This document shows, in pieces, positions 8,584 through 31,272 of a stretch of DNA of 32,000 nucleotides. A program made the position numbers and the translations under genes. The notes below the pieces were generated by a model that saw only the letters and a list, made by a program, of their open reading frames with translations, was not told the origin of the DNA and ran no database searches. This stretch comes from an uncultured Clostridia bacterium (GTDB lineage Bacteria > Bacillota > Clostridia > Christensenellales > UBA1242): assembly GCA_944349805.1 (NCBI GenBank), contig CALVNP010000035.1, forward strand, positions 1 through 32,000. Direction: 5' to 3'. How positions within the stretch are numbered: position 1 is the stretch's first letter; every line of letters begins with the position of its first letter.

Positions 8584-8718
8584 ATGTTAGAATATTACCA
8601 AAAAGAAAGTACTATTGAAGAAATAAACAAACTTTTGTCAGAAACATCAAAAGTTGTTTTAAGTTTGCCAGATGAATGTTTTCCAAATATTGATATGGAG
8701 CAGGAAATTGAAAAATAA
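8584..8718 (+). CDS. Upstream fragment (44 aa) of a frameshift-split hypothetical gene
   Basis: Strong AAAGGAG RBS 6 nt upstream of the ATG at 8584. It ends at TAA directly after an A5 run. The TTG at 8518 in the ORF track overlaps the mrnC stop and has no RBS. Confidence 0.45.
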   Translation: MLEYYQKESTIEEINKLLSETSKVVLSLPDECFPNIDMEQEIEK

Positions 8719-9268
8719 GATTAAAATAAAAGAGTTTGAACAGGAAAAATTTTTACAAGCCTTAAAACAAGGTGTAATAAAAAGTCAAAACTTGTATGAA
8801 AAAGCTAAGGAAATTGACGAAAGAGTTTCAAATTCTTCTTTAAGTTTTGAAGAAATATTAGCAATCATAGATAAGTTTATGACAGAGAAAAATGATTACA
8901 ACAAAATTGAAGGTAAATATGTTTTGCAACCTTATGGTAGGGTGTGCTTAGAGCTTGATGCTTCACTTACAAGTGTGTTCTTACAAGCTTCCTTGTGTAC
9001 TGCACTTACTTATAACAGTGCAATAATTTATTCTTATTCAATAGAAAATTATGCAGTTAATATGTATCTTTTAACTTTAATTAATGAAACATTAAAAAGA
9101 TTTTTAGCAGTAAACTATATAATTTTGCAAATTGGCGAAGTCCCAAAACTTGTAAAGAATATTTTTTATATTGTTTATGATAATAATTTAAAATACTCCT
9201 TAAAAAAAGGTGGGAAAACACAAGATTTCACCTTGAATACACTATTAGTAAAAAGTAGGGCAAAATGA
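8672..9268 (+). CDS. Downstream fragment (198 aa) of the same hypothetical gene
   Basis: Long ORF with no RBS of its own, in the +1 frame relative to 8584..8718 and overlapping it by 47 nt. Its stop overlaps the rlmB start (ATGA at 9265-9268), which implies it is translated as part of the operon. Confidence 0.55.
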   Translation: MNVFQILIWSRKLKNKIKIKEFEQEKFLQALKQGVIKSQNLYEKAKEIDERVSNSSLSFEEILAIIDKFMTEKNDYNKIEGKYVLQPYGRVCLELDASLTSVFLQASLCTALTYNSAIIYSYSIENYAVNMYLLTLINETLKRFLAVNYIILQIGEVPKLVKNIFYIVYDNNLKYSLKKGGKTQDFTLNTLLVKSRAK

Positions 9269-9978: not shown

Positions 9979-10575
9979 ATGCAAAGAACAGACGAAGAGC
10001 TTGTTCAAATGATAAAACTAGGTATAGAAGAAGCTGAGGAAGAGCTGTTTGCTAGATATAAATCTGTGGTAAGCAGTGTTGCACGCAGTTATTTTTTGAT
10101 GGGTGCAGAGCTTGACGATTTAATTCAAGAAGGAATGATTGGCCTTTATAAGGCGTGTCAAAAGTTCAGCGAAAAGCAAGCTAGTTTTAAGACCTTTGCC
10201 TATCTATGTATAAAAAGACAAATTCAAACTGCTGTCAAGCAGGCGAACAGACAAAAAAATAGAATGTTAAACAATTATGTCTCACTTGACTCTCAGGGTG
10301 GATACAAAACAGGGGAAAATGGAGAAGATGAAGCTGTTTTAATTTTGCCATCAAAGGAGTTGTCTCCTGATGCAGAAATTATTCAAAAGGAAAATTATCA
10401 AGAAATTATAAAAAAAATAAAAAGCGCACTTTCACCTTTGGAGTTAAAAGTGCTGACTCTTTATTTGAAAGGTAATTCATATCAAACAATTTCAGTTGAA
10501 GTGGGGAAAAGTTATAAAAGTGTTGACAATTTGCTTTACAGAATTAAAAATAAGTTGGAATTTTTAAAGCATTAA
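9979..10575 (+). CDS. sigH: RNA polymerase sigma factor SigH (sigma-70 family)
   Basis: 198 aa. ARSYFLMGAELDDLIQEGMIGLYKACQKF...FKTFAYLCIKRQIQTAVKQANRQKN closely follows the SigH region 2 pattern. A C-terminal region 4 HTH is present. Synteny with mrnC-rlmB. Confidence 0.85.
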   Translation: MQRTDEELVQMIKLGIEEAEEELFARYKSVVSSVARSYFLMGAELDDLIQEGMIGLYKACQKFSEKQASFKTFAYLCIKRQIQTAVKQANRQKNRMLNNYVSLDSQGGYKTGENGEDEAVLILPSKELSPDAEIIQKENYQEIIKKIKSALSPLELKVLTLYLKGNSYQTISVEVGKSYKSVDNLLYRIKNKLEFLKH

Positions 10576-10769
10576 AAATATCTTCCACCACTGCAGTTGT
10601 TGTTACAGCCACAGCCACAACCACAACCACAGCCCGAACTTCCGTTTTGACCATATAGAGCAAGTAATAACAAAAGAAGAAAATTACTATTGTTTGCAAG
10701 TTCTGTTCCACTTCCCTGAGCAAATACGGACAAAAGTAAAACTAATAAAATATCTTGGGAAAAGTTCAT
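10572..10769 (-). CDS. Small hydrophobic peptide with a C-terminal (Gly-Cys)5 tract, unknown function
   Basis: 65 aa: MNFSQDILLVLLLSVFAQGSGTELANNSNFLLLLLLALYGQNGSSGCGCGCGCGCNNNCSGGRYF. Strong AAAGGAGG RBS 7 nt upstream of the ATG at 10769. Convergent with sigH (4-nt overlap of stops) and divergent from the ArsR-family gene. Confidence 0.6.
   Translation of the reverse strand: MNFSQDILLVLLLSVFAQGSGTELANNSNFLLLLLLALYGQNGSSGCGCGCGCGCNNNCSGGRYF
10605..10634. repeat. Imperfect hexanucleotide tandem repeat (ACARCC)x5 encoding the (GC)5 tract
   Basis: ACAGCC ACAGCC ACAACC ACAACC ACAGCC on the plus strand, equal to GGYTGT x5 on the coding strand. Confidence 0.9.
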
Positions 10770-10856
10770 AACATACCTCCTTTCTACAAAATTTTATCAA
10801 ATTCAAATTTTATCCTTAAAATTTGCACCTTTTAAAGTTGACCTGAGTGGGCGCAA

Positions 10857-10877
10857 ATATGTACAGTGAGTATATAT
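10857..10877. promoter_or_regulatory. Imperfect 9-3-9 inverted repeat, candidate ArsR-family operator
   Basis: ATATGTACA-GTG-AGTATATAT has 7 of 9 arm positions complementary. It overlaps a possible TTGACC(10838-10843)-18-TACAGT promoter just upstream of the regulator RBS. Confidence 0.3.
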
Positions 10878-10916
10878 GAAGTCAAATTAAAAAATGTTAA
10901 CAATAAAAGGGGTAAA

Positions 10917-11258
10917 ATGGACAAGTTTTTATTATTAAAAGACAATGCAAGAAAAGAGATTTTAAACTATATGCCATCAAAAAGTGTAACAGAAAAATTA
11001 GCCGATTATTTTTCAAATTTTTCAGATTATACAAGAGTCAAGATTATATCTTGTCTATCTATGAGTGATATGTGTGTAAGCGACCTTTCTTTACTTTTGG
11101 AAATCAATCAAACAACACTTAGTCATCAATTAAAACTTTTAAAAGATAAAGGTATTGTTTCTTGCAGGAGAGAAGGTAAAATTATACTATATAAGCTTGC
11201 AAATAAGAGTGTAAACAATTTGATGTTAAACGCAGTAAATTCGATATCAAACTCATAA
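10917..11258 (+). CDS. ArsR/SmtB-family winged-helix transcriptional regulator
   Basis: MCVSDLSLLLEINQTTLSHQLKLLKDKGIVSCRREGKIILYKL is the ArsR HTH-plus-wing signature. The start is set at the ATG at 10917, with AAAAGGGG RBS. The GTG at 10866 is unsupported. Confidence 0.8.
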   Translation: MDKFLLLKDNARKEILNYMPSKSVTEKLADYFSNFSDYTRVKIISCLSMSDMCVSDLSLLLEINQTTLSHQLKLLKDKGIVSCRREGKIILYKLANKSVNNLMLNAVNSISNS

Positions 11259-11280
11259 TAAAATAAAAAATTTAGAAAAT

Positions 11281-11306
11281 AAAAACACCAAAATTTTGGT
11301 GTTTTT
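11281..11306. terminator. Bidirectional terminator between the ArsR-family gene and the uridine-kinase-family gene
   Basis: Perfect palindrome AAAAACACCAAAATTTTGGTGTTTTT lying between convergent stops. Confidence 0.7.
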
Positions 11307-11314
11307 ATCATTTT

Positions 11315-20577: not shown

Positions 20578-20646
20578 ATGAAAAAATTTAAGGTTTATTT
20601 AATTGCTTCATTTTGTATGCTTGTTGGATTAATTTTGACGGCGTGT
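20578..20646 (+). other. Lipoprotein signal peptide with lipobox L-T-A-C
   Basis: Basic N-terminus (MKKFK), a hydrophobic core, and TTG ACG GCG TGT at 20635-20646 encoding LTAC with Cys23 as the predicted lipidation site. Confidence 0.8.
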
Positions 20647-23600
20647 GGCAATGTAAAGGTAAAGTTTAATGAAAATGAAATAACAATGTCAGTGGGACAA
20701 GAACTTGAACCCTCTGCTTTTTTAATGCTGGAAGGAGTGGAAGTTAAAGATGTTGATTTCCAATCTAGCAACATTGATGTTGTATACATAACTCCCCAAA
20801 ACACATTTGTTGCACGTGGAGTGGGTAGTTGTGTTATATATGCAAATGCTAGTGGAAGTTATTCTCAAATTTCTGTTAATGTTAAAGGAAATCCTGTAAA
20901 CCTAAGCACACCTTTAGGATTGATGTACTCTAATGGAAGATTATCTTGGCAAGAGGTTATTGAAAGTGTAGATGATAAACTATATGTTTGCGATAGTTAT
21001 GAGATTGAACTTATTAAAGATGACGAAACCATTGTTATTAGCAATATTGTTACAAACTATTATGATATAAACGCTTCTGGAGTCTATAAGGCAAGAGTTA
21101 GAGCTGTTGGAAATTCTAATTTTATTCCATCAGAGTTCAGTGAACAAATTGAATTTTCTGCAATATTTGCAGTTACAAATTTAAATTATGATGAAAACAC
21201 ATCATCGTTGGTTTGGACTGATGATAAAAATTCATCTGGAACAATATATAAAATAATTAAAAACGGGGTATATTTAGATAACAAGATAACTAAAAATGAC
21301 AATGTCAATTATAGCTTTAACATAAATGTTGCAGGTGGAGAACCTGTAAGTTTACAAGTTGTTTCTGTAATTGCAGAAAAGTACGAAGCAAAAAGTGATG
21401 TGTTAAAACTTACAAAGTTAAATGCAATAACAATTCAAGTCCTAAACGGAGAAATAACTTGGAACGAAGTTGCTGGGGCAAGTGAATATAGTGTGTTTGT
21501 AGAGAATATTTCAACAGGAGTTGTTGATAATATTTTGGTTGATTCTACAAGTTATAGTGTGTCAGGTAAAAGCGCAGGGCAGTATAAGGTTTATGTAAAA
21601 GCCGTTTCTTCTTCTCAAGATATCTTGCAAAGCGACAAATCAAATGAATTGACAGTAACAAAACTTCCACAAGCAAATTTGTCCTATAATAAAACGGACA
21701 AAACTTTTACTGTTGGAAACACATCTACCTATTCTCCTGTTATTGTAATAAAAAACAGCAGTGGGGAAGTTCAAAACTTAGAAAATGGAACTTATACATT
21801 TGACAAACAAGATTTAGATATGTACTCAATTTGTGCATACTTTAAGGCAACAACAAATGAAGAAATAAATGGAGACTTCTCCAAAACATATAATATATCA
21901 CAACTCGGTACTGCAACTTTAAACCATTTTGAAAATGAAAATTCCAATGTGATTACATTTGATTCCATTTTGAATGCAAACACATATAAAGTATATGTAA
22001 AACAAAACGATGGACAGTATACAGAACTTGCAACTTTTGAAGCAGGTCAAAATTTAAGTGAAACATTTGTTATTGGTCAAAATTTATTTAGTCAAGCAGG
22101 TTACCATACAATAAAGGTTGAAGTTATAAATAATGGTGACGATTATAGCATTTATCTTTCATCAGAAATGACATTAGAAGTTGAAAGGTTGGAAAATGTT
22201 CAAAATGTAATTGTTGAAGATAATCTTGTTTCTTGGGACGCAGTACAAAATGCAGAAGGTTATGAGTATTTCTTTAATGTTTATGGAACTGATGAAATTG
22301 TTGGTGGTGTTCAAAAAACAACAGCAACCAGCATTGCAATTCCACAAACATTGAGTTTTGGCAAGTATTCATTAAATGTTAAGGCGCTTGGAAATAATGA
22401 AAATGTGTTGTCAAGTGTCGATTATAGTCAAAGTCCACAAATCACCATAATTGAGCAATTGCCATCTCCTGAACTAACATTTGACAAAGAAAATAATTTA
22501 TTAACCTTGATACCAAAAGATAGCATACAGGGAACGACCTATAAACTTGAATTTTATAATCCACAAGGAAGTTTAATCTTCTCAGAAACATCACTTCAAA
22601 ATGATAGGTTTGAAAAAAATATACAAGAATTTTTAACTAGCGCTGGCGTTTATAGGGCAACAGCACAAGCAATAAACGTCAATCCACTTGTTGAATATTC
22701 TCCAATTTATGAAATACACATTGAAAAACTTGAAGCACCTAACTATATTAAGGTGGCAAATAATGTTGTTGGAATTGGAGATAGTCTTAATGGAATTGAA
22801 GGAGTGTTGACAACAGATCCAATTTTAGTATTTGTCAATGGAGAAAAAACTTCTGTCCTATTAAATGAAGAAGATGAGTTTAATATTGAAGTTTGTTATC
22901 AATCAGCTCAATTTAGTATTGTTGAAGGAATAAAAACATATTTTGTCAATAGTGACTATTCGGAATTTAAAGTGAATAGGCTTTCCGTTCCTTCAAACAT
23001 AAAATATGATTTTATAAATAAAAAAATTGTTTGGGATTCAGTGTATGGTGCAGATGCATATGGAGTTTATATAAACGGCTCGCTTCAAAGTAAAGTTGAC
23101 ACAAATGAATATGTATATGAAACCAGCAATGCATTTAAATTTAAAATTATGTCCTTTGCAAATGATAATGAAAAATTAGGTAAGGCTTCTCTTGGAAATG
23201 TTGGATATGTTTCATCTCGTTTTTCAGAAGATATTGTTGTAGAGAAGGCAAATAGTGTTACAGGATTAAAACTTGATATAACAGAAGAAACAATTTGTTT
23301 AAGCTGGAATGAGTCAGAAGAGTCTGGATTGATATATTTAATTTATGTTGATGAAGACTTGGTTGGACAAACAGACCAAAATGAATTTGTTTTAACATCA
23401 AGCTTTAGCGAAGCAAAAACTTATGAAATTTCCGTTATTTCAACTTCATTAAATTTGCTTAACAGTGAAAAAAGCTCTGTACAACTCCAAAAACTTGCTT
23501 CTCCTACACAATTAACAAAACAATTAATGTATGACAAGTATAGTTTAACTTTAATTGAAGGAGCTCAATCGTTTAGTGTTGACGGAGTTGTATTGACAGA

Positions 23601-26600
23601 ATTAGATTTGACCAATTTAACAATGAATGATGGCGAAGTGCAAAAAAGAGTTAAATTTAATGCTATTTCTTCGGAATCTATCATAGATGGCCATTATTAT
23701 TTATCAAGCGAAGAGAGTGTGTTTACATTTAAAAGGCTGGCAACTCCAACAAATTTAACATACAAAAATGGAATTGTTGGTTTTGATGAGGTTATAAATT
23801 CTACTTATATTATTGAAATTGAAGATGACAATGGTATAACAACAAGAACTAGCGAAACAAATTCCATAGATTTAAGTGAATTAACAAATGAATTTACATT
23901 CAAAGTGAAAGCTGTTTCTAAGTTTGGAAACTTGCAAGCTAACACCGATGAAATAACCTATTTAGATTCTGAGTTCTCTGATTCTTATTCTGTTATAAAA
24001 GAAAATTCGGTAAGTAATTTAAAACTTGTAAAAACACTAGATGGATTGAAAATTGAATTTAAGTGGAATTCAAAAGAACAGAACACGCCAAACACACCAA
24101 CATTTAAAATTCAAATAGATGGGAAGTATGCTGACGGCGTAATCTCAAATGATGGAAATGTTTATAGTTTTGAATTTGAAGAAAAATTTAATGAAATTAA
24201 GATTTATACAATAAGTGTTCAAGTTGTAGGAGAAAATTTCCTTTCTTCAAATGAAGAAAGCATCTATGTTGAAAGAATTAATGCACCACAAAGTGTATGC
24301 GTTATAGAAGGTGTTGTTACAGTTAACAATGTTCCACAAAATAAAATTGCAAACATTTTAATAAATGGCGAACTGCAAAATTCTATAAATTTAAATACTT
24401 TAAGTGAGAATTCTAATCAAAAAATAAGTGTACAGTACATAGCTCCAAATTTTGAAGATATAACAGATGGACATTATTATTTAGACAGTTTTGAAACTGT
24501 ATTTATGACATACAAGCTTTTCACCCCAACAGATTTAAAAGTTGAAAACGGCAATTTGGTATGGAAGCAAGATGCAAAAGCAAGTTCTTACACTGTAAAA
24601 GTTACAAATTCTACAGGTGAAGAGCTAATTATAGAAAATTTAACACAACCAAATTTAGCTCTTTCAGACGAGCAACTTTTAAATTTTGTAAATGAAATTG
24701 GAAATTACAATGTCCAGGTTAGATACATAACAGATGACATAGCCAATTTGACAGCTTATGTTGAAGAAGAAAACTCTCCAATAGCAAATATAAGTTCTAA
24801 TTATAGTGATGTATTTGTTTTAACAAAACTCAGCGATGTTGGAGTGTTAAATGTTTCTACAAATGATTTAGATCCAGAACAAAAGGAAGTTACAGTCAGC
24901 TGGTCAGCTGTTGAAGGCGCTTCAAATTATTCTGTTTATGTAAATGATATTTTAATAAATACAATTACAGATAATACTATTGTTTTAAAAAGCGAAGTTG
25001 CATCAAGTGGGAATTATACAGTTTCTGTAAGAGCAAATGCTAACGACAAAATAAGTTCAGAAATGTCCTATGTTTCATTTAAAAGACTTGCAAAAGTAAA
25101 TTATGCAAGTGTAGATGCAAATGCAAATGTTACTTGGGAAAAACTTGAAAATTATTCGTATTATTTGATTATGTATATTGACTCAACATCTGAAATATTT
25201 TATGAAAATGTTGTTGAAACAAACAATATTGACTTTTCAGCAAATGAAAATCTATTAAACTTTGCAGGTGGTTATGTTTACTTTAAAGTTTTAGTAAAAG
25301 GTGATGGCACAACAACACTTTCTGGTGATTACTATGAATTCTCTGCTTTAAAACTCTCTGCCCCTAAACTTGTTGTAAAAGCTTCTATGCTTACAATGGA
25401 AGAACAGGGAATTGCATTACAAGGAAGTTATTCTTTTAGTTTAACAATAGAACATAATGGGAAATATGCATTAGATAATTATGGTGCAGAAATTAATAAT
25501 ATAGTTTTTAACAACGGGCAATCTTTCAGTTATCCAAACTCTTGGGACAGTGGAGATTATACCTTTAAAGCAAGAGCTGTTTCCAATACTATAAATGTCA
25601 TCAGCTCTAATGTTTCTAGTGTTACAAAAACAAGATTGGAAACTATTTCGAACCATAAATTTATTCGTGAAACACTTTCTGATGAAGTAAAAACAACATA
25701 TCATAGTGATAGTGCAGTGGAATATTTAAGTGACAAAATCTATATTGATTTTGACGCATCAGAAAATGCAACAAATTATCAATTAAACATTGGTGGTTAT
25801 ACCACAACATTACAACTTTCTAATTCCAGAATTGATATAGATAATGAAATTGATGCTCGTTTAAATGGCAAGTTCACAATCTATGTAACATCTCTTGCAA
25901 CTGATGATTCTAACTTTATTAACTCAGCTAGATATGAAATTACAGGAACTAGACTTTCTGCTTTAAGTTATGATGATTTTAAAACTAACAATGGAAAGGT
26001 TTCTTGGGTTGATAATCAAAATGGTGTAAGTTACTATCTTATTAAAATTTCAGAAGACCAAAATGAACCTTGGGGATATTGGCAGAGCGCTGATTCCAAT
26101 GTTAATTCTGCAAGTTTAAACGGCATAAATGAAGGGACAAAATCTTACAACATAAAAGCGCTGGGAAATATTACAGTAGATGGTGTTTCAGAAAATGTTG
26201 TGTTAGATTCACAATATTTAACACAAACAAAACAGTTTACAAAACTTGCAAAACCTTTTGTTACTGTAAAAAACGGATTTATAACACTTGCAAATAGAAT
26301 AGAAGGGGCTTCATCTTATTATGCAGTTATTGGAGAAAATAGGTATATTTTAGGAGATTATTCATCTCTCACCCCAGATCAAAACGATTTTGTAGGCTAT
26401 AATAATGATTTAGCAAATGCTTTACAATCCAACACACTATATTCTTTACAGGTACAAGCTTGTGGGGGAAATAGTGAAATATATTCTGATTATTCCGATG
26501 CAATAAATGTTAAGTTTTTAAGCAATGCAAATGTTGATACAAACAGCATAAAATTGATGCTTGACCCATCAGGAGATTTGACAAAAACAAAACTTGTTTT

Positions 26601-29600
26601 CAATATAGATATTAATGGTAAAGGTGCTATAATTAGGTATCAAAATACATTTGTTTTGTATAATTTTGTCCCAACATCTACAACTTTCTATCTTGATAGG
26701 GAAAATTTAACAATTTATGCTAATCAAAACATTTCAATTGCTTCAATGGGTAGTAGTGAAATTGAAAGTGGTGGTTTTTATTACTTAAATTCAGATTTTT
26801 CATATAGTAAAACCATTTCAAAATTAAACGAACCTACAAATGTTAGAATTGAAGATGGAATAATCAAATGGAATGGTGTGAGTGAAGCAAGTGGTTACTA
26901 TGTTTATGTTAATGGAAGCAAGTTATACACAAACAATATTTATGAAATATACACCAAAAATTCACTTGATTTGTCTGAATTTGGCTATGGCAGTTTGGAG
27001 GATAACAAAATATACTCGATAGGAGTTGTTGCAGTATGTCAGACAACGGACTATATTTCAAGTATGTGGAATGGTGGAGCTAATGATGTATCCGAAGAAA
27101 CATCATATTACATTGAAAATGTTGTACTTCCACACGCTCCTTTACAAATTGATATAATTGATGGTTCTTTGGTTTGGAATTCTGGATTAAGTGGATTAAA
27201 TGGAAGAGATATCAATTTGTTGACATTAGCAACATATCTTAACCAATTGTTAAATGAACCTATTTTACTATTGTATAATAGTGGTTCTTTAACTGATATG
27301 AAATTAAATTTTGGGTTGCCAACAATTGATTTGCAATTCACTAATATAAATAGTGGTGAAGTGTACCATACGACATTAAATTCCAATATAGGCTTTAATG
27401 CAACAGGGCAAATTGAAATCAATTTTGAATATTTGGATTTAATAAATGTTTCCGAAGAACAGGTTAACAAGTTAAAAGAATTAAAAAATGTATTGATTGA
27501 TAATTCTATTATGGCAGAGGACTCCATAGAGATTATAATTCTTGATAAAATGATTGAAATATTTGAAGAAAGATTGTCATTACAAGAAATAGGACTTCCA
27601 AACATTAATAAATTCATAGAAGAAATTAAGGAAAACAATAACATTCCTGCTGGTAAATATAATTTACAAATAAGACAAATTGGTGATACGGTTTTCTTGA
27701 ACTCTAATTATAATCAAGCAAAAGAAATTTATATTCCACAAGCTCCTAGCAATATTACAATAGAAGCGCCAACAACGATAGAATCAGAAAGACAATTCTA
27801 TCTTAGCTGGGATAATGTTACAATTGATAGTACTGTTGGATATACTGTTGAGCAAAAATATTTGGTTATTGTTGAAGATATTTATGGAGCTAGAAGGGTT
27901 GTTGCAAGAGTAAACGAAGATGTATCTAGTGAAAACAATAGAACAAGAATAAATTTAACTGACCTTGTCAATGACGATTTATTGACTCCAGATGATATCA
28001 AAATTTTTGTTGTTGTTGCAGGAGATAGCAACAAGACAATTTATGGTCGTATGTCCGATGTCCTTAATATTACGGTTTTGCCACAAGTTGAGTCTTATAT
28101 GGATAAGGGTTACCTATCTTGGAAAACAATACCATCTGCTTATGGAGTTCAAATTATTGCAGTGGGCGATACCCAAACTCTATCCACAACTGTTAAACTT
28201 TCTGACTATACCAGATGGGCAGGAGATGATTTGATTGCAAATATAAGTTATTCAACATCTATTAGAGCTGTGGGCGAAGTTTATGTTTCTACAAATAACG
28301 ATGGTGTAAAAACTTATGTTATTTCTGGTAAAAAGACTGAATTTACATTAAATAAGCTTAGTGCTCCAAGTGTTTCTGTTAACACAAAAGGAATATTTAT
28401 TTGGTTAGAAGTTGTTGGGAATGTAAGTGGTTACTTAATTGATGTGAACGGACAAGAAATAAGCTTAACTCCAACAACCACTCAATATGAAAGCACATTT
28501 GCTGGCTATAATAGATATCAGTTTAGAGCGCAAGGTGATACTTGTGATATTCAAGAGTTTAATACTTACTATTTAAGTTCACTTCCAAATAAACAAGATG
28601 GTAAAAGCTACTATGGTATTTATGGTTTTATGTTACCAGAAGTTACTGAGATTCAAATTGAAGAAGGTAAATTAAAGTGGAAAAAATTAGAATCGTTAAA
28701 CAATATAAACGAAATTGATGATAAGGAAAATTACAAGCAAAACATTATATATAAATTGATAATCGGCGAAAAAGTTATATATGTAGAACAAGACAGCTAC
28801 TTAAAAGATGATTATATAATATATGATAATTTCTCAGATTTAGAGTCTGGGACATACAATATGTCAATTCAAGCATTTGTTTATTGGAAACCAATAGATA
28901 GTATGGGAACATTACCTAACATTGTGTCTACATTAGAAAATTATTCACAAGGAATTAAGGATTATTATGCTCTTCTTGGAGAAAAGAGTTCTACTCAAAG
29001 TGGAGAAATAAGTAAGGCAAAAAGCATAACGAGTGGACTAAATGTTAATAATGTAATAGCAGTTGAAAACGGTATGCTTGTATGGGATTTTGTAACTGAA
29101 AGTTTAAATAACGGGGGCAAGAAACATCTAGATTATATATTGACCTTTGCATTGGACGAAAACTTTACATCAGGAATTATAACAACCAATGTAAGCTTTG
29201 ATGGAAATGAGTTATATGCAAAATGGTGGGATGAAGTTTTAGTTGAAGGTGTAAATTACTATGTTAAAATTAATGTTAATGGAAAAACAGAATATTTGAA
29301 TTCTTCATTTACTCCTTATGCAGATAATTCTCAAAGTCCTATTGTTTACAAAGTTACATCGCCTTTGAATTTCCAGAATATATTGTATGATGGCTACAAT
29401 AGTATCACACCAAAAGGTGATGAGATAAATGGAAATTCAATTGAAATAAAACTTAAAAAATCAGTTAATGTATTGTCTCCAACCTATAACATTGGTTTTG
29501 AAATTAGATATAGGGCAATTGGTAGTGATGATGAAACTCCTTGGAATTATTATGATTTCGGGAAATTGAACAATATGGTTTCAGATGACATAGTAGAATA

Positions 29601-31272
29601 TTCCTTGGATATATCCAAATTAGGTGGAGTTAATTCATTCGAATATCAAATTCAAATGACACTATTAGATAAAGATAATCAAAAATACTTAAAATCAAAT
29701 TGGTCGGAATTAGATACATTCAATACACCAACACAAGTTGAAGAAATTTATTATGACGAATCTACATATGAATTCTATTGGAAAGATGAAAAAATAGAAG
29801 ACACAGAAACTTATTATGGTTATATAATTTTAGATGAGTTGTTAAACGAAGATGGTTCAATCTTGGAAAGCTATAAGTATATAATACCAGCTGGTTCACA
29901 CTATTCACTTGATTATATAAAATCGTCTAATGGAACAAGATATGTTTACTATGCTCCATTTGAGATAGGCAACCATAGGATTTCAGTCAGAAAAACAGCA
30001 GATAATCAGGGTGCATTAATTTCTGCTCCAACTTATTATAGTGAAAATGGAGAAGAATTTACTGTTTATAATTTTGACTTGTTTGAAGTTGAAAATTTAT
30101 CTGGATTAAATCACGGTTCTGCAGAAAATCCATATTTAATTTCAGATTCAGAAGATTTTGCAAACATAAAAGCTAGACCAACAAAATACACATATATGAC
30201 TAGTTATACTGATAAGAATAATATAAGTAAAACTTCCGATTCTACTTATACATTTAGACAAAATAACGATATAACAATTACAATTAACAATTATTTCTTG
30301 TCAAAGTTTGATAATGTTTATGACGGAAATGAAAAAACTTTAAACTACACTATAATTAATACAAGTGCTAACGCAACCTTATTTAATAACATCGGAACAA
30401 ATGGTGTGTTTAAAAATACAAAAATTAATGTTACTTTGCAAGCTAATAGTGGAAGTGTAAACTTCGCAAGTATTGCATATCAGAATAATGGTTTAGTTTA
30501 TAATTGTTTAATTAATGGGTTAGGAATAACAGGAAATGCTTCATCAATAAATATTGCAGGTTTTGTATTTGAAAACTATGGCACAGTTCAAGGAGCAATT
30601 TTAAATGTTAATTTAGAATCTAACAAAATTAGCAATGCTTCTGGTATTGTAAACACTAATAATGGAATAATAACACAATGTGGAAATAATGGGAACATTA
30701 CAATAAATGGCTCAAATGCAACAAGGTTGGCAGGCATAGTGTTGTATAATAATAATAGTGTAAATGAATGCTACAACAAAGGAATCTTAACTTTAAGTTC
30801 AAATGTGGGTGAGGTTTATGCTGGGGGTATAAGTGCTCAAAATGGAGCAAACTCTTCAATTAATAATTCTTACAATACAGGAATTATACAAATTAATGGT
30901 TCACATAGTATTTTAGCAATAGGAGGTATTGTTGGAAATTCTTCAACTAATTCTATTGATAACTGTTATTCAACTCAAGTAATTATTTCAGAAATAAGTG
31001 CAAATCAAGGTGCAATAATTGGCAAATTAAATTCTGCTTCTTCAGGAAGAAATAATTATTATCTTGAAGGGTCATCTTATGCGATTGGAAACATCATAGA
31101 TACATCGTTTGCTCAATCTACCTCTGAAGGTGATATGAAAGATGTAGAATTCTACAAAAAATTAAATGAATCTTCTTATGTTTATGATGAAGATAATAGG
31201 AATAATGGATATCCAATCTTGCGATGGGAAAACAATGAAAATTTACTAATAAATATTCCTTCAAGTATCTAA
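20578..31272 (+). CDS. Giant (3,564 aa) surface lipoprotein: Big_2-like domain, about 30 FN3/Ig-like modules, C-terminal GLUG-type beta-helix domain
   Basis: Single uninterrupted ORF with a good RBS. Lipoprotein signal MKKFKVYLIASFCMLVGLILTAC. About 19 copies of the FN3-type strand motif (for example GEITWNEVAGASEYSVFV, VTVSWSAVEGASNYSVYV, GIIKWNGVSEASGYYVYV). Module ends have the form ...(K/R)L followed by xxP. The C-terminus has repeated A(G)G(I/L)V..N.G.I..CYN.G units and ends in NGYPILRWEN. Confidence 0.9.
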   Translation: MKKFKVYLIASFCMLVGLILTACGNVKVKFNENEITMSVGQELEPSAFLMLEGVEVKDVDFQSSNIDVVYITPQNTFVARGVGSCVIYANASGSYSQISVNVKGNPVNLSTPLGLMYSNGRLSWQEVIESVDDKLYVCDSYEIELIKDDETIVISNIVTNYYDINASGVYKARVRAVGNSNFIPSEFSEQIEFSAIFAVTNLNYDENTSSLVWTDDKNSSGTIYKIIKNGVYLDNKITKNDNVNYSFNINVAGGEPVSLQVVSVIAEKYEAKSDVLKLTKLNAITIQVLNGEITWNEVAGASEYSVFVENISTGVVDNILVDSTSYSVSGKSAGQYKVYVKAVSSSQDILQSDKSNELTVTKLPQANLSYNKTDKTFTVGNTSTYSPVIVIKNSSGEVQNLENGTYTFDKQDLDMYSICAYFKATTNEEINGDFSKTYNISQLGTATLNHFENENSNVITFDSILNANTYKVYVKQNDGQYTELATFEAGQNLSETFVIGQNLFSQAGYHTIKVEVINNGDDYSIYLSSEMTLEVERLENVQNVIVEDNLVSWDAVQNAEGYEYFFNVYGTDEIVGGVQKTTATSIAIPQTLSFGKYSLNVKALGNNENVLSSVDYSQSPQITIIEQLPSPELTFDKENNLLTLIPKDSIQGTTYKLEFYNPQGSLIFSETSLQNDRFEKNIQEFLTSAGVYRATAQAINVNPLVEYSPIYEIHIEKLEAPNYIKVANNVVGIGDSLNGIEGVLTTDPILVFVNGEKTSVLLNEEDEFNIEVCYQSAQFSIVEGIKTYFVNSDYSEFKVNRLSVPSNIKYDFINKKIVWDSVYGADAYGVYINGSLQSKVDTNEYVYETSNAFKFKIMSFANDNEKLGKASLGNVGYVSSRFSEDIVVEKANSVTGLKLDITEETICLSWNESEESGLIYLIYVDEDLVGQTDQNEFVLTSSFSEAKTYEISVISTSLNLLNSEKSSVQLQKLASPTQLTKQLMYDKYSLTLIEGAQSFSVDGVVLTELDLTNLTMNDGEVQKRVKFNAISSESIIDGHYYLSSEESVFTFKRLATPTNLTYKNGIVGFDEVINSTYIIEIEDDNGITTRTSETNSIDLSELTNEFTFKVKAVSKFGNLQANTDEITYLDSEFSDSYSVIKENSVSNLKLVKTLDGLKIEFKWNSKEQNTPNTPTFKIQIDGKYADGVISNDGNVYSFEFEEKFNEIKIYTISVQVVGENFLSSNEESIYVERINAPQSVCVIEGVVTVNNVPQNKIANILINGELQNSINLNTLSENSNQKISVQYIAPNFEDITDGHYYLDSFETVFMTYKLFTPTDLKVENGNLVWKQDAKASSYTVKVTNSTGEELIIENLTQPNLALSDEQLLNFVNEIGNYNVQVRYITDDIANLTAYVEEENSPIANISSNYSDVFVLTKLSDVGVLNVSTNDLDPEQKEVTVSWSAVEGASNYSVYVNDILINTITDNTIVLKSEVASSGNYTVSVRANANDKISSEMSYVSFKRLAKVNYASVDANANVTWEKLENYSYYLIMYIDSTSEIFYENVVETNNIDFSANENLLNFAGGYVYFKVLVKGDGTTTLSGDYYEFSALKLSAPKLVVKASMLTMEEQGIALQGSYSFSLTIEHNGKYALDNYGAEINNIVFNNGQSFSYPNSWDSGDYTFKARAVSNTINVISSNVSSVTKTRLETISNHKFIRETLSDEVKTTYHSDSAVEYLSDKIYIDFDASENATNYQLNIGGYTTTLQLSNSRIDIDNEIDARLNGKFTIYVTSLATDDSNFINSARYEITGTRLSALSYDDFKTNNGKVSWVDNQNGVSYYLIKISEDQNEPWGYWQSADSNVNSASLNGINEGTKSYNIKALGNITVDGVSENVVLDSQYLTQTKQFTKLAKPFVTVKNGFITLANRIEGASSYYAVIGENRYILGDYSSLTPDQNDFVGYNNDLANALQSNTLYSLQVQACGGNSEIYSDYSDAINVKFLSNANVDTNSIKLMLDPSGDLTKTKLVFNIDINGKGAIIRYQNTFVLYNFVPTSTTFYLDRENLTIYANQNISIASMGSSEIESGGFYYLNSDFSYSKTISKLNEPTNVRIEDGIIKWNGVSEASGYYVYVNGSKLYTNNIYEIYTKNSLDLSEFGYGSLEDNKIYSIGVVAVCQTTDYISSMWNGGANDVSEETSYYIENVVLPHAPLQIDIIDGSLVWNSGLSGLNGRDINLLTLATYLNQLLNEPILLLYNSGSLTDMKLNFGLPTIDLQFTNINSGEVYHTTLNSNIGFNATGQIEINFEYLDLINVSEEQVNKLKELKNVLIDNSIMAEDSIEIIILDKMIEIFEERLSLQEIGLPNINKFIEEIKENNNIPAGKYNLQIRQIGDTVFLNSNYNQAKEIYIPQAPSNITIEAPTTIESERQFYLSWDNVTIDSTVGYTVEQKYLVIVEDIYGARRVVARVNEDVSSENNRTRINLTDLVNDDLLTPDDIKIFVVVAGDSNKTIYGRMSDVLNITVLPQVESYMDKGYLSWKTIPSAYGVQIIAVGDTQTLSTTVKLSDYTRWAGDDLIANISYSTSIRAVGEVYVSTNNDGVKTYVISGKKTEFTLNKLSAPSVSVNTKGIFIWLEVVGNVSGYLIDVNGQEISLTPTTTQYESTFAGYNRYQFRAQGDTCDIQEFNTYYLSSLPNKQDGKSYYGIYGFMLPEVTEIQIEEGKLKWKKLESLNNINEIDDKENYKQNIIYKLIIGEKVIYVEQDSYLKDDYIIYDNFSDLESGTYNMSIQAFVYWKPIDSMGTLPNIVSTLENYSQGIKDYYALLGEKSSTQSGEISKAKSITSGLNVNNVIAVENGMLVWDFVTESLNNGGKKHLDYILTFALDENFTSGIITTNVSFDGNELYAKWWDEVLVEGVNYYVKINVNGKTEYLNSSFTPYADNSQSPIVYKVTSPLNFQNILYDGYNSITPKGDEINGNSIEIKLKKSVNVLSPTYNIGFEIRYRAIGSDDETPWNYYDFGKLNNMVSDDIVEYSLDISKLGGVNSFEYQIQMTLLDKDNQKYLKSNWSELDTFNTPTQVEEIYYDESTYEFYWKDEKIEDTETYYGYIILDELLNEDGSILESYKYIIPAGSHYSLDYIKSSNGTRYVYYAPFEIGNHRISVRKTADNQGALISAPTYYSENGEEFTVYNFDLFEVENLSGLNHGSAENPYLISDSEDFANIKARPTKYTYMTSYTDKNNISKTSDSTYTFRQNNDITITINNYFLSKFDNVYDGNEKTLNYTIINTSANATLFNNIGTNGVFKNTKINVTLQANSGSVNFASIAYQNNGLVYNCLINGLGITGNASSINIAGFVFENYGTVQGAILNVNLESNKISNASGIVNTNNGIITQCGNNGNITINGSNATRLAGIVLYNNNSVNECYNKGILTLSSNVGEVYAGGISAQNGANSSINNSYNTGIIQINGSHSILAIGGIVGNSSTNSIDNCYSTQVIISEISANQGAIIGKLNSASSGRNNYYLEGSSYAIGNIIDTSFAQSTSEGDMKDVEFYKKLNESSYVYDEDNRNNGYPILRWENNENLLINIPSSI
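20653..20889 (+). other. Big_2-like bacterial Ig domain at the membrane-proximal end
   Basis: ITMSVGQELEPSAFL...VDFQSSNIDVVYITPQNTFVARGVGSCVIYANASG...ISVNV follows the Big_2 pattern (l.vG....l......v.w.SSn..va.v...G.v.a...G.a.I.a). Confidence 0.5.
22732..25089 (+). repeat. Protein-level super-repeat: three consecutive copies of a three-module (about 255-270 aa) unit
   Basis: The units span 22732-23496, 23497-24279 and 24280-25089. Each unit has an NGE-type module, an NG..(W/F)-type module and an N/S-(S/D)V..L(K/N)(L/V)-type module. Two of the NGE-type modules end in DGHYYL.S.E.VF...KL.TPT.L. The copies are clearly related as protein but diverged at the DNA level. Confidence 0.6.
30088..31269 (+). 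other. C-terminal GLUG-motif / right-handed beta-helix type domain (about 393 aa)
   Basis: AENPYLISDSEDFANI, then FRQNNDITI...FDNVYDGNEKTLNYTIIN...LFNNIG..GVFKNTKINV. This is followed by about 7 repeats of roughly 22-25 aa (IAGFVFENYGTVQGA, ASGIVNTNNGIITQCGNNGNI, LAGIVLYNNNSVNECYNKGIL, AGGISAQNGANSSINNSYNTGII, IGGIVGNSSTNSIDNCYS). The terminal sequence is NGYPILRWEN. Confidence 0.7.

What the first reader, a model, noticed from the sequence alone, without database searches (positions are those of the whole stretch)
10572..11258. Divergent pair: ArsR/SmtB regulator and a 65-aa peptide ending in (Gly-Cys)5-NNN-C
The minus-strand ORF has one of the best RBSs in the window (AAAGGAGG, 7-nt spacing). 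It encodes MNFSQDILLVLLLSVFAQGSGTELANNSNFLLLLLLALYGQNGSSGCGCGCGCGCNNNCSGGRYF. That is two short hydrophobic stretches followed by six Cys in 15 residues. It sits 147 bp from, and divergent to, an ArsR/SmtB-family regulator. A divergent metal-sensing repressor plus a Cys-rich small protein is the smtB-smtA (metallothionein) arrangement of cyanobacteria. A metal-, metalloid- or sulfur-responsive thiol-rich membrane or secreted peptide is therefore one hypothesis. There are two alternatives. It could be a RiPP-like precursor whose Cys-Gly repeats would be heterocyclised or cross-linked, but I see no modifying enzyme or transporter nearby. It could also be a tiny sporulation-associated membrane peptide of YjcZ-like composition, given the adjacent sigH. 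The regulator lacks the canonical ELCVCDL pair (it reads DMCVSDL) and has no His-rich alpha-5 site, so its effector is not obvious.
Basis: partly seen in the sequence, partly recalled or inferred. Interest (0 to 1): 0.65.

Follow-up and report, generated by a model that had tools for sequence, protein, structure and literature searches.

The report
ArsR-paired small cysteine-tailed membrane peptide
A real, strongly conserved gene for a roughly 60-residue, lysine-free, leucine- and asparagine-rich hairpin peptide with a short cysteine tail always sits beside its own ArsR/SmtB-type repressor in a large group of uncultured gut Clostridia. This is an unannotated two-gene cassette whose trigger and function are still unknown.

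Summary
The 65-aa ORF (10572-10769, minus), its AAAGGAGG ribosome-binding site and the divergent ArsR/SmtB gene 147 bp away (10917-11258) are all present.

The ORF is a true gene. More than 100 homologue clusters exist, Leu columns are invariant while using 5-6 codons, and pN/pS is 0.26.

The pairing is obligate. All 77 species-level ArsR orthologue loci with upstream DNA carry the peptide, across about nine genomic contexts. One locus has the two genes co-directional.

No Pfam or NCBIfam model matches the peptide. It is not YjcZ, SCIFF or PF12669.

The metallothionein reading is only partly supported. The (Gly-Cys)5 tail is a lineage-specific hexanucleotide-repeat expansion. Most members have 2-3 Cys, commonly C-x-QNTCP.

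The peptide family has no lysine. AlphaFold predicts two helices plus a disordered tail.

The repressor keeps only Cys53 and Asp56 (SmtB Cys61/Asp64). It has no alpha5 site.

A conserved CATAWATA palindromic element lies about 37 nt upstream of the repressor start. In the co-directional locus it precedes both genes.

My best reading is an autoregulated, thiol-sensing repressor that controls a small membrane peptide. No maturase is linked, which argues against a RiPP. The sigH adjacency is lineage-specific, which argues against a sporulation link.

The parts
10572..10769 (-). Gene for the 65-aa peptide. It has two Leu-rich helices (residues 3-19 and 28-43), a polar loop, and a disordered Gly/Cys/Asn tail that ends in RYF.
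   Evidence: Homologues are. Purifying selection is shown. The AlphaFold2 model has helices H3-19 and H28-43, a tail with pLDDT below 50, and a mean pLDDT of 61.
10605..10634 (-). In-frame hexanucleotide tandem array, (ACAGCC)5 on the plus strand, that encodes the (Gly-Cys)5 run.
   Evidence: Tandem Repeats Finder reports period 6, 5.0 copies and 91% matches. Homologues P0081 and P0090 differ by exactly one Gly-Cys unit.
10776..10783 (-). Shine-Dalgarno sequence AAAGGAGG of the peptide gene, 6 nt before the ATG.
   Evidence: Read from the sequence. A GGAGG-type site occurs within 15 nt of the ATG in 81 of 81 orthologous spacers, against a shuffled mean of 0.2.
10804..10825 (.). Perfect 9-bp inverted repeat, CAAATTTTA-TCCT-TAAAATTTG, in the putative 5' leader of the peptide mRNA. 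It is either an RNA hairpin or a second protein-binding palindrome.
   Evidence: The sequence is and is unique in the window at no more than 2 mismatches. In the main clade the equivalent CAAAATAGA-N7-TCTATTTTG shows 86.6% pairing, against 78.6% when shuffled and about 54% when slid. Six of 9 pairs have changes on both sides.
10838..10867 (+). Candidate sigma-A-type promoter of the ArsR gene, TTGACC-N18-TACAGT.
   Evidence: This is a consensus scan only, and the transcription start has not been mapped. In L011 a TTGACA-N17-TACAAT in the same orientation can be read from the spacer sequence.
10857..10877 (.). Imperfect palindrome ATATGTAC-AGTGA-GTATATAT. It is the best candidate operator for the ArsR dimer and overlaps the -10 and start regions of both divergent promoter candidates.
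   Evidence: It is unique in the 32-kb window. The CATAWATA core occurs in 59 of 81 orthologous spacers (shuffled mean 3.8), at a fixed 25-53 nt (median 37) from the ArsR start codon. In the main clade it reads as the 14-bp palindrome CATAAATATTTATG. In the co-directional locus L103 a CATATATA element lies upstream of both genes.
10871..10900 (-). Candidate promoter of the peptide gene, with -35 TTAACA (10895-10900) and -10 TATATA (10871-10876). The alternative reported by the scan tool is TTGACT 10880-10885 with CATATT 10856-10861.
   Evidence: T.ACA-N15-17-CATA occurs in 56 of 81 spacers, against a shuffled mean of 1.4. The alignment is and the scan. In L103 this element travels with the peptide gene. 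The start site has not been mapped.
10917..11258 (+). ArsR/SmtB-family winged-helix repressor of 113 aa. Cys53 and Asp56 are invariant, Cys46 is nearly invariant, and the recognition helix reads NQTTxSHQLK.
   Evidence: The orthologue alignment is, the 80-sequence conservation, and the SmtB/CzrA alignment.
11279..11308 (+). Intrinsic-terminator-like hairpin and T-run that closes the monocistronic ArsR transcription unit.
   Evidence: Terminator scan.

Best explanation
This is a self-contained two-gene cassette.

**The repressor.** It is a small ArsR/SmtB-type repressor. As a dimer it binds a palindromic operator (window 10857-10877) that overlaps the -10 and start regions of two back-to-back promoters. 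It therefore represses both its own gene and the divergent peptide gene.

**The sensor.** The repressor has lost the classical alpha5 and CVC metal sites. It retains one invariant thiol, Cys53, with Asp56, plus Cys46 in most members. Derepression is therefore most likely triggered by a thiol-reactive cue. Candidates are a soft metal or metalloid, a reactive sulfur species or an oxidant.

**The product.** The peptide is about 60 aa, uncharged and lysine-free. It inserts into the membrane as a two-helix hairpin. It displays a short flexible tail with a Cys motif: at least 2 Cys, usually CC or CxC followed by x3-4 and C. The tail ends in aromatic residues.

**The likely role.** Acting as an oligomer or with a membrane partner, the tail binds or buffers the same class of thiophilic ligand at the membrane. 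The number of Cys is tuned in different lineages by slippage of a hexanucleotide repeat.

**What is shown:** the gene is real, the linkage is obligate, the regulator belongs to the ArsR/SmtB family, the DNA elements are conserved, and the helix-loop-helix-tail architecture is predicted.

**What is inferred:** the membrane location and topology, the identity of the operator, the nature of the inducer, and what the peptide does.
For: **Real coding gene.**
- pN/pS is 0.26, and Leu columns use 5-6 codons.
- The family comprises 115 clusters at 90% identity and 79 representatives at 50% identity.

**Obligate linkage.**
- In 77 of 77 informative GTDB species loci found through the ArsR protein, the peptide gene lies 127-469 bp upstream and divergent.
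- Searches starting from the peptide give the same result in five different contexts, including the distant P0008.
- Three more ArsR homologues at 50-55% identity also carry it. One of them, L103, has the order ArsR then peptide on one strand.

**Regulator.**
- It scores above the family cut-offs for NF033788 and HTH_5.
- SmtB and CzrA are the nearest solved structures.
- Cys53 is present in 80 of 80 orthologues and Cys46 in 77 of 80. No other conserved Cys or His exists except the His of the recognition helix.

**Operator and promoter.**
- CATAWATA is enriched (59 of 81 against 3.8 shuffled) and sits at a fixed distance from the ArsR start.
- It is palindromic in the main clade and unique in the window.
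- It is duplicated in front of both genes in L103.

**Peptide.**
- The AlphaFold2 model gives H3-19, H28-43 and a disordered tail.
- Kyte-Doolittle hydropathy peaks at 3.25 (11-residue window) and 1.68 (19-residue window).
- Lys content is 0.0%, and 45 of 77 peptides have no Lys or Arg at all.
- All members have at least 2 Cys, and 76 of 77 have a hydrophobic C-terminus.

**Repeat-driven tail.**

**Background.** ArsR-family members sense metals, metalloids, persulfides and H2O2, and some have no inducer site (PMC11672702).
Against: - There is no transcript, protein or binding data, so promoter and operator assignments rest on consensus and conservation only.
- Some distant orthologues (L011, L102) have only Cys53, so a two-Cys switch within one subunit cannot be universal.
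- The regulator might not sense anything. Some ArsR proteins lack inducer sites.
- The hydrophobic stretches are only 10-11 residues long and are not flanked by positive charges. This is atypical for transmembrane helices. The AlphaFold2 confidence is only moderate (mean pLDDT 61, pTM 0.30).
- Two or three Cys per chain is too few for sequestration unless the peptide oligomerises.
- The well-conserved QNTCP motif suggests specific recognition rather than generic metal binding.
- The second conserved inverted repeat (10804-10825) is not explained by this model.
Confidence: 0.45

Rival explanations
1. This is the first reader's idea of a membrane-anchored metallothionein. The Cys-rich tail would be a high-capacity store for Zn, Cd or Cu, induced by metal through the SmtB-like repressor exactly as in smtB-smtA.
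For: - The layout is divergent, and the nearest solved relatives are SmtB and CzrA.
- The window peptide has 6 Cys within 13 residues.
- Some lineages have 7-10 Cys in CxC or CNPC repeats.
- One variant, P0100, adds a His-rich extension.
- Repeat slippage could adjust capacity.
Against: - 65 of 77 distinct peptides have only 2-4 Cys.
- No metallothionein or other Pfam model is hit.
- The regulator lacks the alpha5 Zn site and the N-terminal ligands of the alpha3N site.
- The strongly conserved part of the peptide is the hydrophobic hairpin, not the tail.
Confidence: 0.12
2. The peptide is a feedback partner, or anti-repressor, of its own regulator in the manner of SdpR-SdpI. Its Cys tail would contact ArsR Cys53/Asp56 at the membrane through a bridging metal or a mixed disulfide. 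It would either sequester the repressor or complete its missing sensory site.
For: - The one-to-one linkage is strict and survives a change of gene order.
- The regulator keeps only the alpha3 half (SmtB Cys61/Asp64 equivalents) of an alpha3N-type site and lacks the N-terminal ligands.
- At least 2 Cys are conserved in every peptide.
- The NCBIfam SdpR model gives a sub-threshold match of 55 bits against a cut-off of 100.
Against: - There is no direct evidence of any contact, and the topology of the tail is unknown.
- The tails are hypervariable while the regulator surface is well conserved.
- A closed loop with no other output would need additional regulon members, and none was found in the 32-kb window.
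Confidence: 0.12
3. The peptide is a membrane-active or exported agent kept silent by the repressor. It could be a toxin, a bacteriocin-like peptide or a signalling peptide, with the hypervariable C-terminal tail as the specificity-determining part.
For: - The N-terminal 40 aa are conserved while the C-terminus is species-specific.
- Lysine is completely absent and Lys/Arg are nearly absent. This would protect a peptide from trypsin-like proteases in the gut, which is my inference.
- A dedicated regulator next to a short hydrophobic peptide recalls Rgg/SHP-type cassettes, which I cite from general knowledge.
Against: - There is no positively charged signal-peptide n-region, since Lys or Arg occurs in the first 45 aa in only 8 of 77 peptides, and I see no double-glycine leader.
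- No conserved transporter, protease or immunity gene is present. ABC exporters appear only in L019.
- ArsR proteins of about 110 aa have no known peptide-binding domain.
- There are no matches on plasmids or phages.
Confidence: 0.1
4. The peptide is a RiPP precursor. The conserved N-terminus would be a leader and the Cys-rich C-terminus a core that is cyclised or cross-linked by an enzyme encoded elsewhere.
For: The conservation pattern resembles leader and core, and the tails are rich in Cys, Asn and Thr.
Against: - No radical-SAM enzyme, cyclodehydratase, lanthipeptide synthetase or peptidase is conserved beside the pair in about nine contexts.
- No SCIFF or other precursor model is hit.
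- A poly-Leu leader would be unprecedented, to my knowledge.
Confidence: 0.04
5. The peptide is a sporulation-associated tiny membrane protein, YjcZ-like, linked to sigH.
For: The gene is adjacent to and converges on sigH in the window. Carrier genomes encode Spo0A and SpoIIE. The composition resembles YjcZ.
Against: - No YjcZ (TIGR01732-type) hit occurs in 41 members.
- The sigH adjacency is seen only in the window's subclade, and other lineages have unrelated neighbours.
- The conserved upstream hexamers fit sigma-A, and no sigma-E, -K, -F or -G consensus with proper spacing was found on my inspection.
Confidence: 0.04

Closest known systems
smtB-smtA of Synechococcus PCC 7942 (SmtB repressor with a divergent metallothionein gene)
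   Same: A small ArsR/SmtB repressor is divergently transcribed from a gene for a small Cys-containing protein. A shared operator-promoter region lies between them. SmtB is the top solved-structure match for the regulator (E 1.7e-13). The Cys and Asp of the SmtB alpha3 motif LCVGDL are kept as MCVSDL.
   Different: The peptide is not a metallothionein. It matches no Pfam model, has typically 2-3 Cys, and is dominated by two Leu-rich hydrophobic helices. The regulator lacks the alpha5 Zn site, which is the regulatory site in SmtB, and also lacks the N-terminal Cys/His ligands.
SdpR-SdpI of Bacillus subtilis (ArsR-family autorepressor controlled by a membrane protein)
   Same: An ArsR-family autorepressor is genetically tied to a membrane protein and to nothing else. 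There is a weak match to the SdpR model (55 bits).
   Different: The match is below the model cut-off of 100 bits. SdpI is a large polytopic protein encoded in the same operon. Here the partner is a 60-aa hairpin that is usually divergent.
FeoB-associated Cys-rich membrane protein (Pfam PF12669)
   Same: Both are tiny proteins with a hydrophobic N-terminal part followed by a CGCGCGC-type tail. Two PF12669 proteins appear at the very bottom of the profile search (E 2.8 and 9.6).
   Different: There is no significant similarity, with only 1 of 41 members matching at E 0.18. PF12669 proteins have one transmembrane segment and basic residues after it. There is no ArsR linkage.
YjcZ-family sporulation proteins (tiny transmembrane proteins of Bacilli)
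   Same: Both are of similar size, with a hydrophobic core and Gly/Cys/Tyr-rich ends.
   Different: No model match was found. The peptide has two hydrophobic segments rather than one. Its ArsR pairing and lack of lysine are specific to this family.
Small regulator-controlled membrane proteins such as MntS (MntR regulon) or MgrB (PhoP regulon)
   Same: The concept is the same: a very small protein whose only known control is a metal- or stress-responsive regulator, and which acts by modulating a membrane partner. I cite this from general knowledge.
   Different: There is no sequence relationship, the regulator families differ, and no partner is known here.

Membership tests
ArsR/SmtB transcription factors | Match to the family HMMs above the curated cut-off | tested here: met
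   NF033788 scores 77.4 bits against a cut-off of 55. PF01022 HTH_5 scores 48.9 bits against 22.
ArsR/SmtB transcription factors | Winged-helix core with the recognition helix motif (xxSHQL) | tested here: met
   INQTTxSHQLK is invariant in the orthologues and aligns with SmtB ESAVSHQLR.
ArsR/SmtB, alpha5 Zn/Co/Ni sensors (SmtB, CzrA) | Asp/His ... His/Glu ligand set on helix alpha5 | tested here: not met
   SmtB D104/H106/H117/E120 (ligand identities and numbering cited from the published structure, not shown in the tool output) align with Asn/Ser/Asn-type residues. No conserved His or Cys exists in that helix in 80 orthologues.
ArsR/SmtB, alpha3 As(III) sensors (E. coli ArsR type) | ELCVCDLC triad of cysteines | tested here: not met
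   The motif reads DMCVSDL, and only the first Cys (Cys53) is present.
ArsR/SmtB, alpha3N sensors (CadC, SmtB site 1) | Alpha3 Cys/Asp plus Cys/His ligands from the N-terminal arm | tested here: not met
   Cys53 and Asp56 are invariant, but the N-terminal 25 residues contain no conserved Cys or His.
ArsR/SmtB, persulfide sensors (BigR, SqrR) | Cys in alpha2 paired with Cys in alpha5, and a match to the equivalog model | tested here: not met
   NF040642 scores 48.9 bits against a cut-off of 155. There is no conserved alpha5 Cys. Cys46 in alpha2 is present in 77 of 80 orthologues.
Bacterial metallothionein (SmtA/BmtA) | Sequence match to the metallothionein model, and a high Cys content that forms a metal-thiolate cluster | tested here: not met
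   No Pfam family is hit by the window peptide or by 41 members. The commonest Cys count is 3.
YjcZ-family sporulation protein | Match to the NCBIfam/TIGRFAM model | tested here: not met
   No hit at E up to 10 for the window peptide or at E up to 1 for 41 members.
RiPP precursor (SCIFF/ranthipeptide, thiopeptide, lanthipeptide and similar) | A dedicated maturase encoded next to the precursor | tested here: not met
   The neighbours differ among about nine contexts, and none is a known maturase. Maturases encoded elsewhere in the genome could not be checked.
Sec-type secreted peptide | Signal peptide with a positively charged n-region | tested here: not met
   Lys or Arg occurs in the first 45 residues in only 8 of 77 peptides, and 45 of 77 have none at all. 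No dedicated signal-peptide predictor was available.
Integral membrane hairpin protein | Two membrane-spanning helices and experimental membrane association | tested here: inconclusive
   AlphaFold2 predicts helices 3-19 and 28-43. The Kyte-Doolittle 19-residue maximum is 1.68, which is borderline. The purely hydrophobic cores are only 10-11 residues long. No experimental data exist.

The most novel reading that the evidence does not exclude
The peptide and the repressor form a two-component thiol sensor. The membrane-tethered Cys tail would supply the ligands that this ArsR lineage has lost, namely the N-terminal half of an alpha3N-type site. A metal, metalloid or oxidant would then bridge the peptide to Cys53/Asp56 of the repressor and pull it off the DNA at the membrane. 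The hexanucleotide Gly-Cys repeat would act as an evolvable dial for ligand capacity or affinity. This would be a new way for an ArsR/SmtB protein to sense. It would also define a new family of lysine-free micro-membrane proteins common in gut Clostridia.
Probability: 0.12. Interest if true: 0.75.

Novelty: new variant of a known kind. Interest (0 to 1): 0.55.

Why it matters
ArsR/SmtB repressors that control a divergent effector gene are a familiar theme. Here the effector is an unannotated peptide family. It comprises more than 100 clusters at 90% identity, has no Pfam or NCBIfam model, and is sometimes not even called as a gene. It is strictly tied to one regulator lineage across at least 80 species of uncultured Christensenellales-like and related gut Clostridia.

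The cassette offers three things:
- A minimal system of two genes and one roughly 150-bp control region for finding out what a non-canonical, single-Cys ArsR senses.
- An example of a small protein with extreme composition: 20% Leu, 19% Asn and no Lys.
- A natural case of repeat-driven variation in Cys number.

If the peptide turns out to be a metal or redox buffer, or a partner of the regulator, it would add a new effector class to bacterial metal and thiol homeostasis in abundant but poorly studied gut anaerobes.

Tried and rejected
- **Pfam and NCBIfam scans.** I scanned the window peptide and 41 family members. Only noise-level hits appeared, such as DAP10, MtsC and PEP-CTERM at E above 0.005.
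- **Locus search from the peptide alignment.** I used the ArsR alignment instead.
- **Rfam.** A scan of the whole window at gathering thresholds found no RNA family.
- **Plasmids and phages.** tblastn of the peptide against both collections found nothing. This argues against a mobile toxin or bacteriocin.
- **Extra operator copies.** I searched the 32-kb window for both palindromes. Only 3-mismatch matches inside coding regions turned up.
- **Sporulation promoters.** I looked for sigma-E, -K, -F, -G and -H consensus promoters in the aligned spacers. CATA-type boxes exist, but the spacing to any -35 partner varies from 10 to 13 nt and does not fit (my inspection).
- **A proximal promoter.** A candidate TTG...N17...TA next to the Shine-Dalgarno sequence occurs in 22 of 81 spacers. 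I set it aside because its transcript would lack the universally conserved Shine-Dalgarno sequence.
- **Third conserved gene.** T4SS-pilin-like genes, an unknown 154-aa protein and QueH are syntenic in the main clade only. They are absent from the window's clade and from other clades.
- **Literature.** Full-text searches found no description of this cassette.
- **Cultured carriers.** The ArsR homologue search returned only metagenomic sequences.
Full report

The minus-strand ORF 10572..10769 translates to exactly the 65 residues quoted. It is preceded by AAAGGAGG, the reverse complement of 10776-10783, which lies 6 nt before the ATG.

The plus-strand neighbour is an ArsR/SmtB regulator. NF033788 scores 77.4 bits against a cut-off of 55, and HTH_5 scores 48.9 bits against 22. 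Orthologue alignment fixes its start at ATG 10917, giving 113 aa, rather than at the GTG at 10866.

The DMCVSDL motif and the lack of alpha5 ligands are confirmed against SmtB and CzrA.

**2. Is the small ORF a gene?**

Yes.
- A single-sequence search found seven clear homologues and one distant one, all 59-70 aa.
- A profile search found 115 clusters at 90% identity. An exhaustive HMM search found 79 representatives at 50% identity.
- Across 83 distinct coding sequences, the N-terminal 34 aligned codons have pS 0.80 and pN 0.21. Invariant Leu columns use five or six different codons. This is the signature of selection on the protein.
- No member has a name other than "hypothetical protein". 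In two loci the gene was not even called.
- No Pfam or NCBIfam model matches the window peptide or any of 41 members.

**3. Is the pairing with ArsR meaningful?**

Searches starting from the peptide gave the following.
- In every locus with enough upstream DNA there was a divergent HTH_5 gene of 110-112 aa.
- These loci fall into five unrelated neighbourhoods: GAPDH, unknown genes, sigH, UDG/ArgRS and ABC exporters.
- The set includes the distant relative P0008, which is seen on 195 contigs.

Searches starting from the regulator gave the same result.
- I scanned one genome per GTDB species and kept the 80 best orthologues.
- 77 of these carry the peptide gene immediately upstream on the opposite strand. 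The other three have the ArsR match within about 140 nt of the start of the fetched locus, leaving no room for the upstream gene.
- Spacer lengths cluster at 143-162 bp.

Three further regulators at 50-55% identity also have the peptide. In L103 the order is ArsR then peptide on the same strand, with a 71-nt gap. Linkage that survives both changes of neighbourhood and a change of orientation indicates a functional two-gene unit.

One caveat applies. Most of the 80 loci belong to one clade with conserved synteny. That synteny comprises one to four T4SS-pilin-like PF18895 genes beyond the peptide, and an unknown 154-aa protein plus QueH beyond ArsR. The count of 77 is therefore not 77 independent events. 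The roughly nine distinct contexts are the stronger argument.

Carriers are uncultured Clostridia. The closest is Candidatus Caccopulliclostridium gallistercoris, with ArsR 92% identical. No cultured carrier was found, and the peptide has no match on plasmids or phages.

**4. Anatomy of the peptide family**

The consensus is M-N-x-S/T-Q-D/N, then ILLVLLLS(V/I), then x-x-(N/S)-A-T-(D/G)-T-(N/E)-L-(N/A)-T-N-T-N, then FLLLLLLAL. A variable Asn/Gly-rich linker follows, then a Cys motif, then a hydrophobic or aromatic end.

AlphaFold2 with a 41-sequence alignment gives helices 3-19 and 28-43 and a disordered tail. The mean pLDDT is 61, about 70 in the helices.

The composition is extreme: Leu 20%, Asn 19%, Thr 10% and Lys 0.0%. 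Of 77 peptides, 45 have no basic residue at all. Where Arg occurs it is mostly in the last 12 residues. The organism is AT-rich and AAA/AAG codons are cheap, so the absence of Lys must be selected.

There is no positively charged n-region, so a Sec signal peptide is unlikely.

The purely hydrophobic cores are 10-11 residues long, and the 19-residue Kyte-Doolittle maximum of 1.68 is borderline. I infer a short two-helix membrane hairpin with an acidic loop. I have not shown this. Insertion of such hairpins by YidC-type insertases is established biology, but it was not tested here.

**5.

Across 77 distinct peptides the Cys counts are:

| Cys per peptide | Number of peptides |
|---|---|
| 2 | 12 |
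| 3 | 42 |
| 4 | 11 |
| 5 or more | 12 |

Fifty-nine peptides carry NTC(P/S), typically as (CC or CxC)-x-Q-N-T-C-P-G.

The window's (Gly-Cys)5 is encoded by an in-frame (ACAGCC)5 array at 10605-10634. The nearest species has three units (L020). P0081 and P0090 differ by exactly one Gly-Cys unit and are otherwise identical. Cys number therefore expands and contracts by repeat slippage in particular lineages. High thiol density is not the conserved feature.

A three-thiol cluster spaced CC-x4-C resembles the As(III)-binding sites of ArsD and ArsR. That comparison is from my own knowledge and is only a lead.

**6. The regulator**

Among 80 orthologues, Cys53 is invariant and Cys46 is present in 77. 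The only other conserved Cys or His is the His of the recognition helix. More distant members (L011, L102) keep only Cys53.

Cys53 and Asp56 align with SmtB Cys61 and Asp64, the alpha3 half of the alpha3N site. The N-terminal ligands and the whole alpha5 site are missing.

The sub-family models for BigR, SdpR, CmtR and TsoR all score far below their cut-offs.

The sensory chemistry is therefore non-canonical and probably based on thiols. The ArsR family is known to sense metals, metalloids, persulfides and H2O2, and some members lack an inducer site altogether (PMC11672702).

**7. The control region**

An alignment of 57 spacers of up to 165 nt, taken from the 81 distinct spacers, shows the following elements in the peptide-sense direction:
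- a T.ACA hexamer;
- then, 15-17 nt on, CATAWATAWT;
- then an A-rich block;
- then an inverted repeat CAAAATAGA-N7-TCTATTTTG;
- then ATTTTTGTAGAAAGGAGG and the ATG.

The counts are as follows.

| Element | Spacers with it (of 81) | Shuffled mean |
|---|---|---|
| CATAWATA | 59 | 3.8 |
| T.ACA-N15-17-CATA | 56 | 1.4 |

CATAWATA always lies 25-53 nt (median 37) from the ArsR start codon. Its distance to the peptide ATG ranges from 105 to 261 nt.

In the main clade the element is the 14-bp palindrome CATAAATATTTATG. In the window it is ATATGTAC-AGTGA-GTATATAT at 10857-10877, which is unique in the 32 kb.

In the co-directional locus L103, a CATATATA element sits just upstream of the ArsR Shine-Dalgarno sequence and again just upstream of the peptide Shine-Dalgarno sequence. 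This is what one expects of the operator of an autoregulated repressor that also controls the peptide.

The consensus scan places a plus-strand TTGACC-N18-TACAGT (10838-10867) and a minus-strand TTGACT-N18-CATATT (10885-10856) around this element. The conserved T.ACA (TTAACA, 10895-10900) with TATATA (10871-10876) is an alternative for the peptide promoter. Either way the palindrome overlaps the -10 and start regions of two back-to-back promoters. None of the start sites has been mapped.

**8. The second inverted repeat**

In the main clade the repeat has constant geometry. Pairing is 86.6%, against 78.6% when shuffled and about 54% when slid. Six of nine pairs have changes on both sides, and the covariation score is 0.227 against 0.095.

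The predicted RNA stability is negligible, with a consensus energy of -0.58 kcal/mol. G-U cells outnumber A-C cells on the peptide-sense strand by about 11 to 4, which only weakly favours an RNA hairpin in the peptide leader.

Its 25-bp span also fits a 12-2-12 ArsR-type palindrome. In that case, concerted change of both half-sites would look like covariation.

The window equivalent is the perfect repeat at 10804-10825. L103 lacks it in front of the peptide gene. I leave its role open.

**9. Mechanism**

The best-supported model is an autoregulated ArsR/SmtB repressor. It holds down both itself and a small membrane peptide from one operator and is released by a thiol-reactive cue acting at Cys53. 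The induced peptide is a hairpin with a flexible Cys tail. It binds or buffers that cue at the membrane, or modulates a membrane partner. I put this at 0.45.

The rivals rank as follows.
- **Literal metallothionein model (0.12).** It fails on Cys number and on the missing Zn site.
- **Feedback-partner model (0.12).** The peptide tail would complete or sequester the repressor. This model is attractive because the regulator keeps only half of an alpha3N site and the pairing is one-to-one. It has no direct support.
- **Exported toxin or signal (0.10).** It fits the split between a conserved N-terminus and a variable C-terminus, and the lack of Lys and Arg. It lacks any export, processing or immunity genes.
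- **RiPP (0.04) and YjcZ/sporulation (0.04).** Both are disfavoured by the absence of linked maturases and model hits, and by the lineage-specific nature of the sigH adjacency.

**10. Novelty and verdict**

The regulatory logic is a known kind: an ArsR/SmtB repressor with a divergent effector, as in smtB-smtA. The effector is a new, unannotated family of small proteins with unusual composition, an evolvable Cys repeat and an obligate partner that lacks every canonical sensory site.

I classify it as a new variant of a known kind, with interest 0.55. Nothing in the analysis required a step that had to be referred.

Noticed in passing
window 20578-31272 (+): A 3564-aa ORF with no Pfam domain at E up to 1e-5. 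A giant protein of unknown type lies next to rubrerythrin-like and UvrC genes.
   Followed up: no
window 10572-10575: The stop codons of the peptide gene (minus strand) and of the sigH-like sigma factor gene (plus strand, 9979-10575) overlap by 4 bp. No terminator lies between the convergent genes. The same arrangement occurs in L007.
   Followed up: partly
L022-L099 (main clade), for example L097 978-1361 and 2014-2256: One to four tandem genes for roughly 100-130-aa T4SS_pilin-like (PF18895) membrane proteins lie downstream of the peptide gene on the same strand, with no other conjugation genes nearby. On the other side, ArsR is followed by an unknown 154-aa protein with a CGDC motif and by QueH. 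None of these is present in the window.
   Followed up: partly
L100/L101 2189-2413 (-): The peptide gene is present, with HMM E-value 2e-19, but the gene predictions attached to these public contigs did not call it. The family is therefore under-annotated.
   Followed up: yes
P0100 (117 aa): In this single family member the GCGCGCGC run is followed by a roughly 60-residue extension rich in His, Arg and Asp (HGHHHDNHRRRF...). It is the only member that looks like a soluble metal-binding extension.
   Followed up: no
window 8672-9268 (+): A 198-aa ORF with no Pfam match lies between the mini-RNase III gene and the SpoU/TrmH-type methyltransferase gene. It is conserved at the same position in L007 as genes of 188 and 44 aa.
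   Followed up: no
L001 5694-6000, L003 4458-4926, L019 714-1081: In the environmental (non-gut) subclade with Pro/Cys-rich CNPC tails, the ArsR-peptide spacer is 300-470 bp instead of about 150 bp. It contains extra AT-rich repeats, and its content was not analysed.
   Followed up: no
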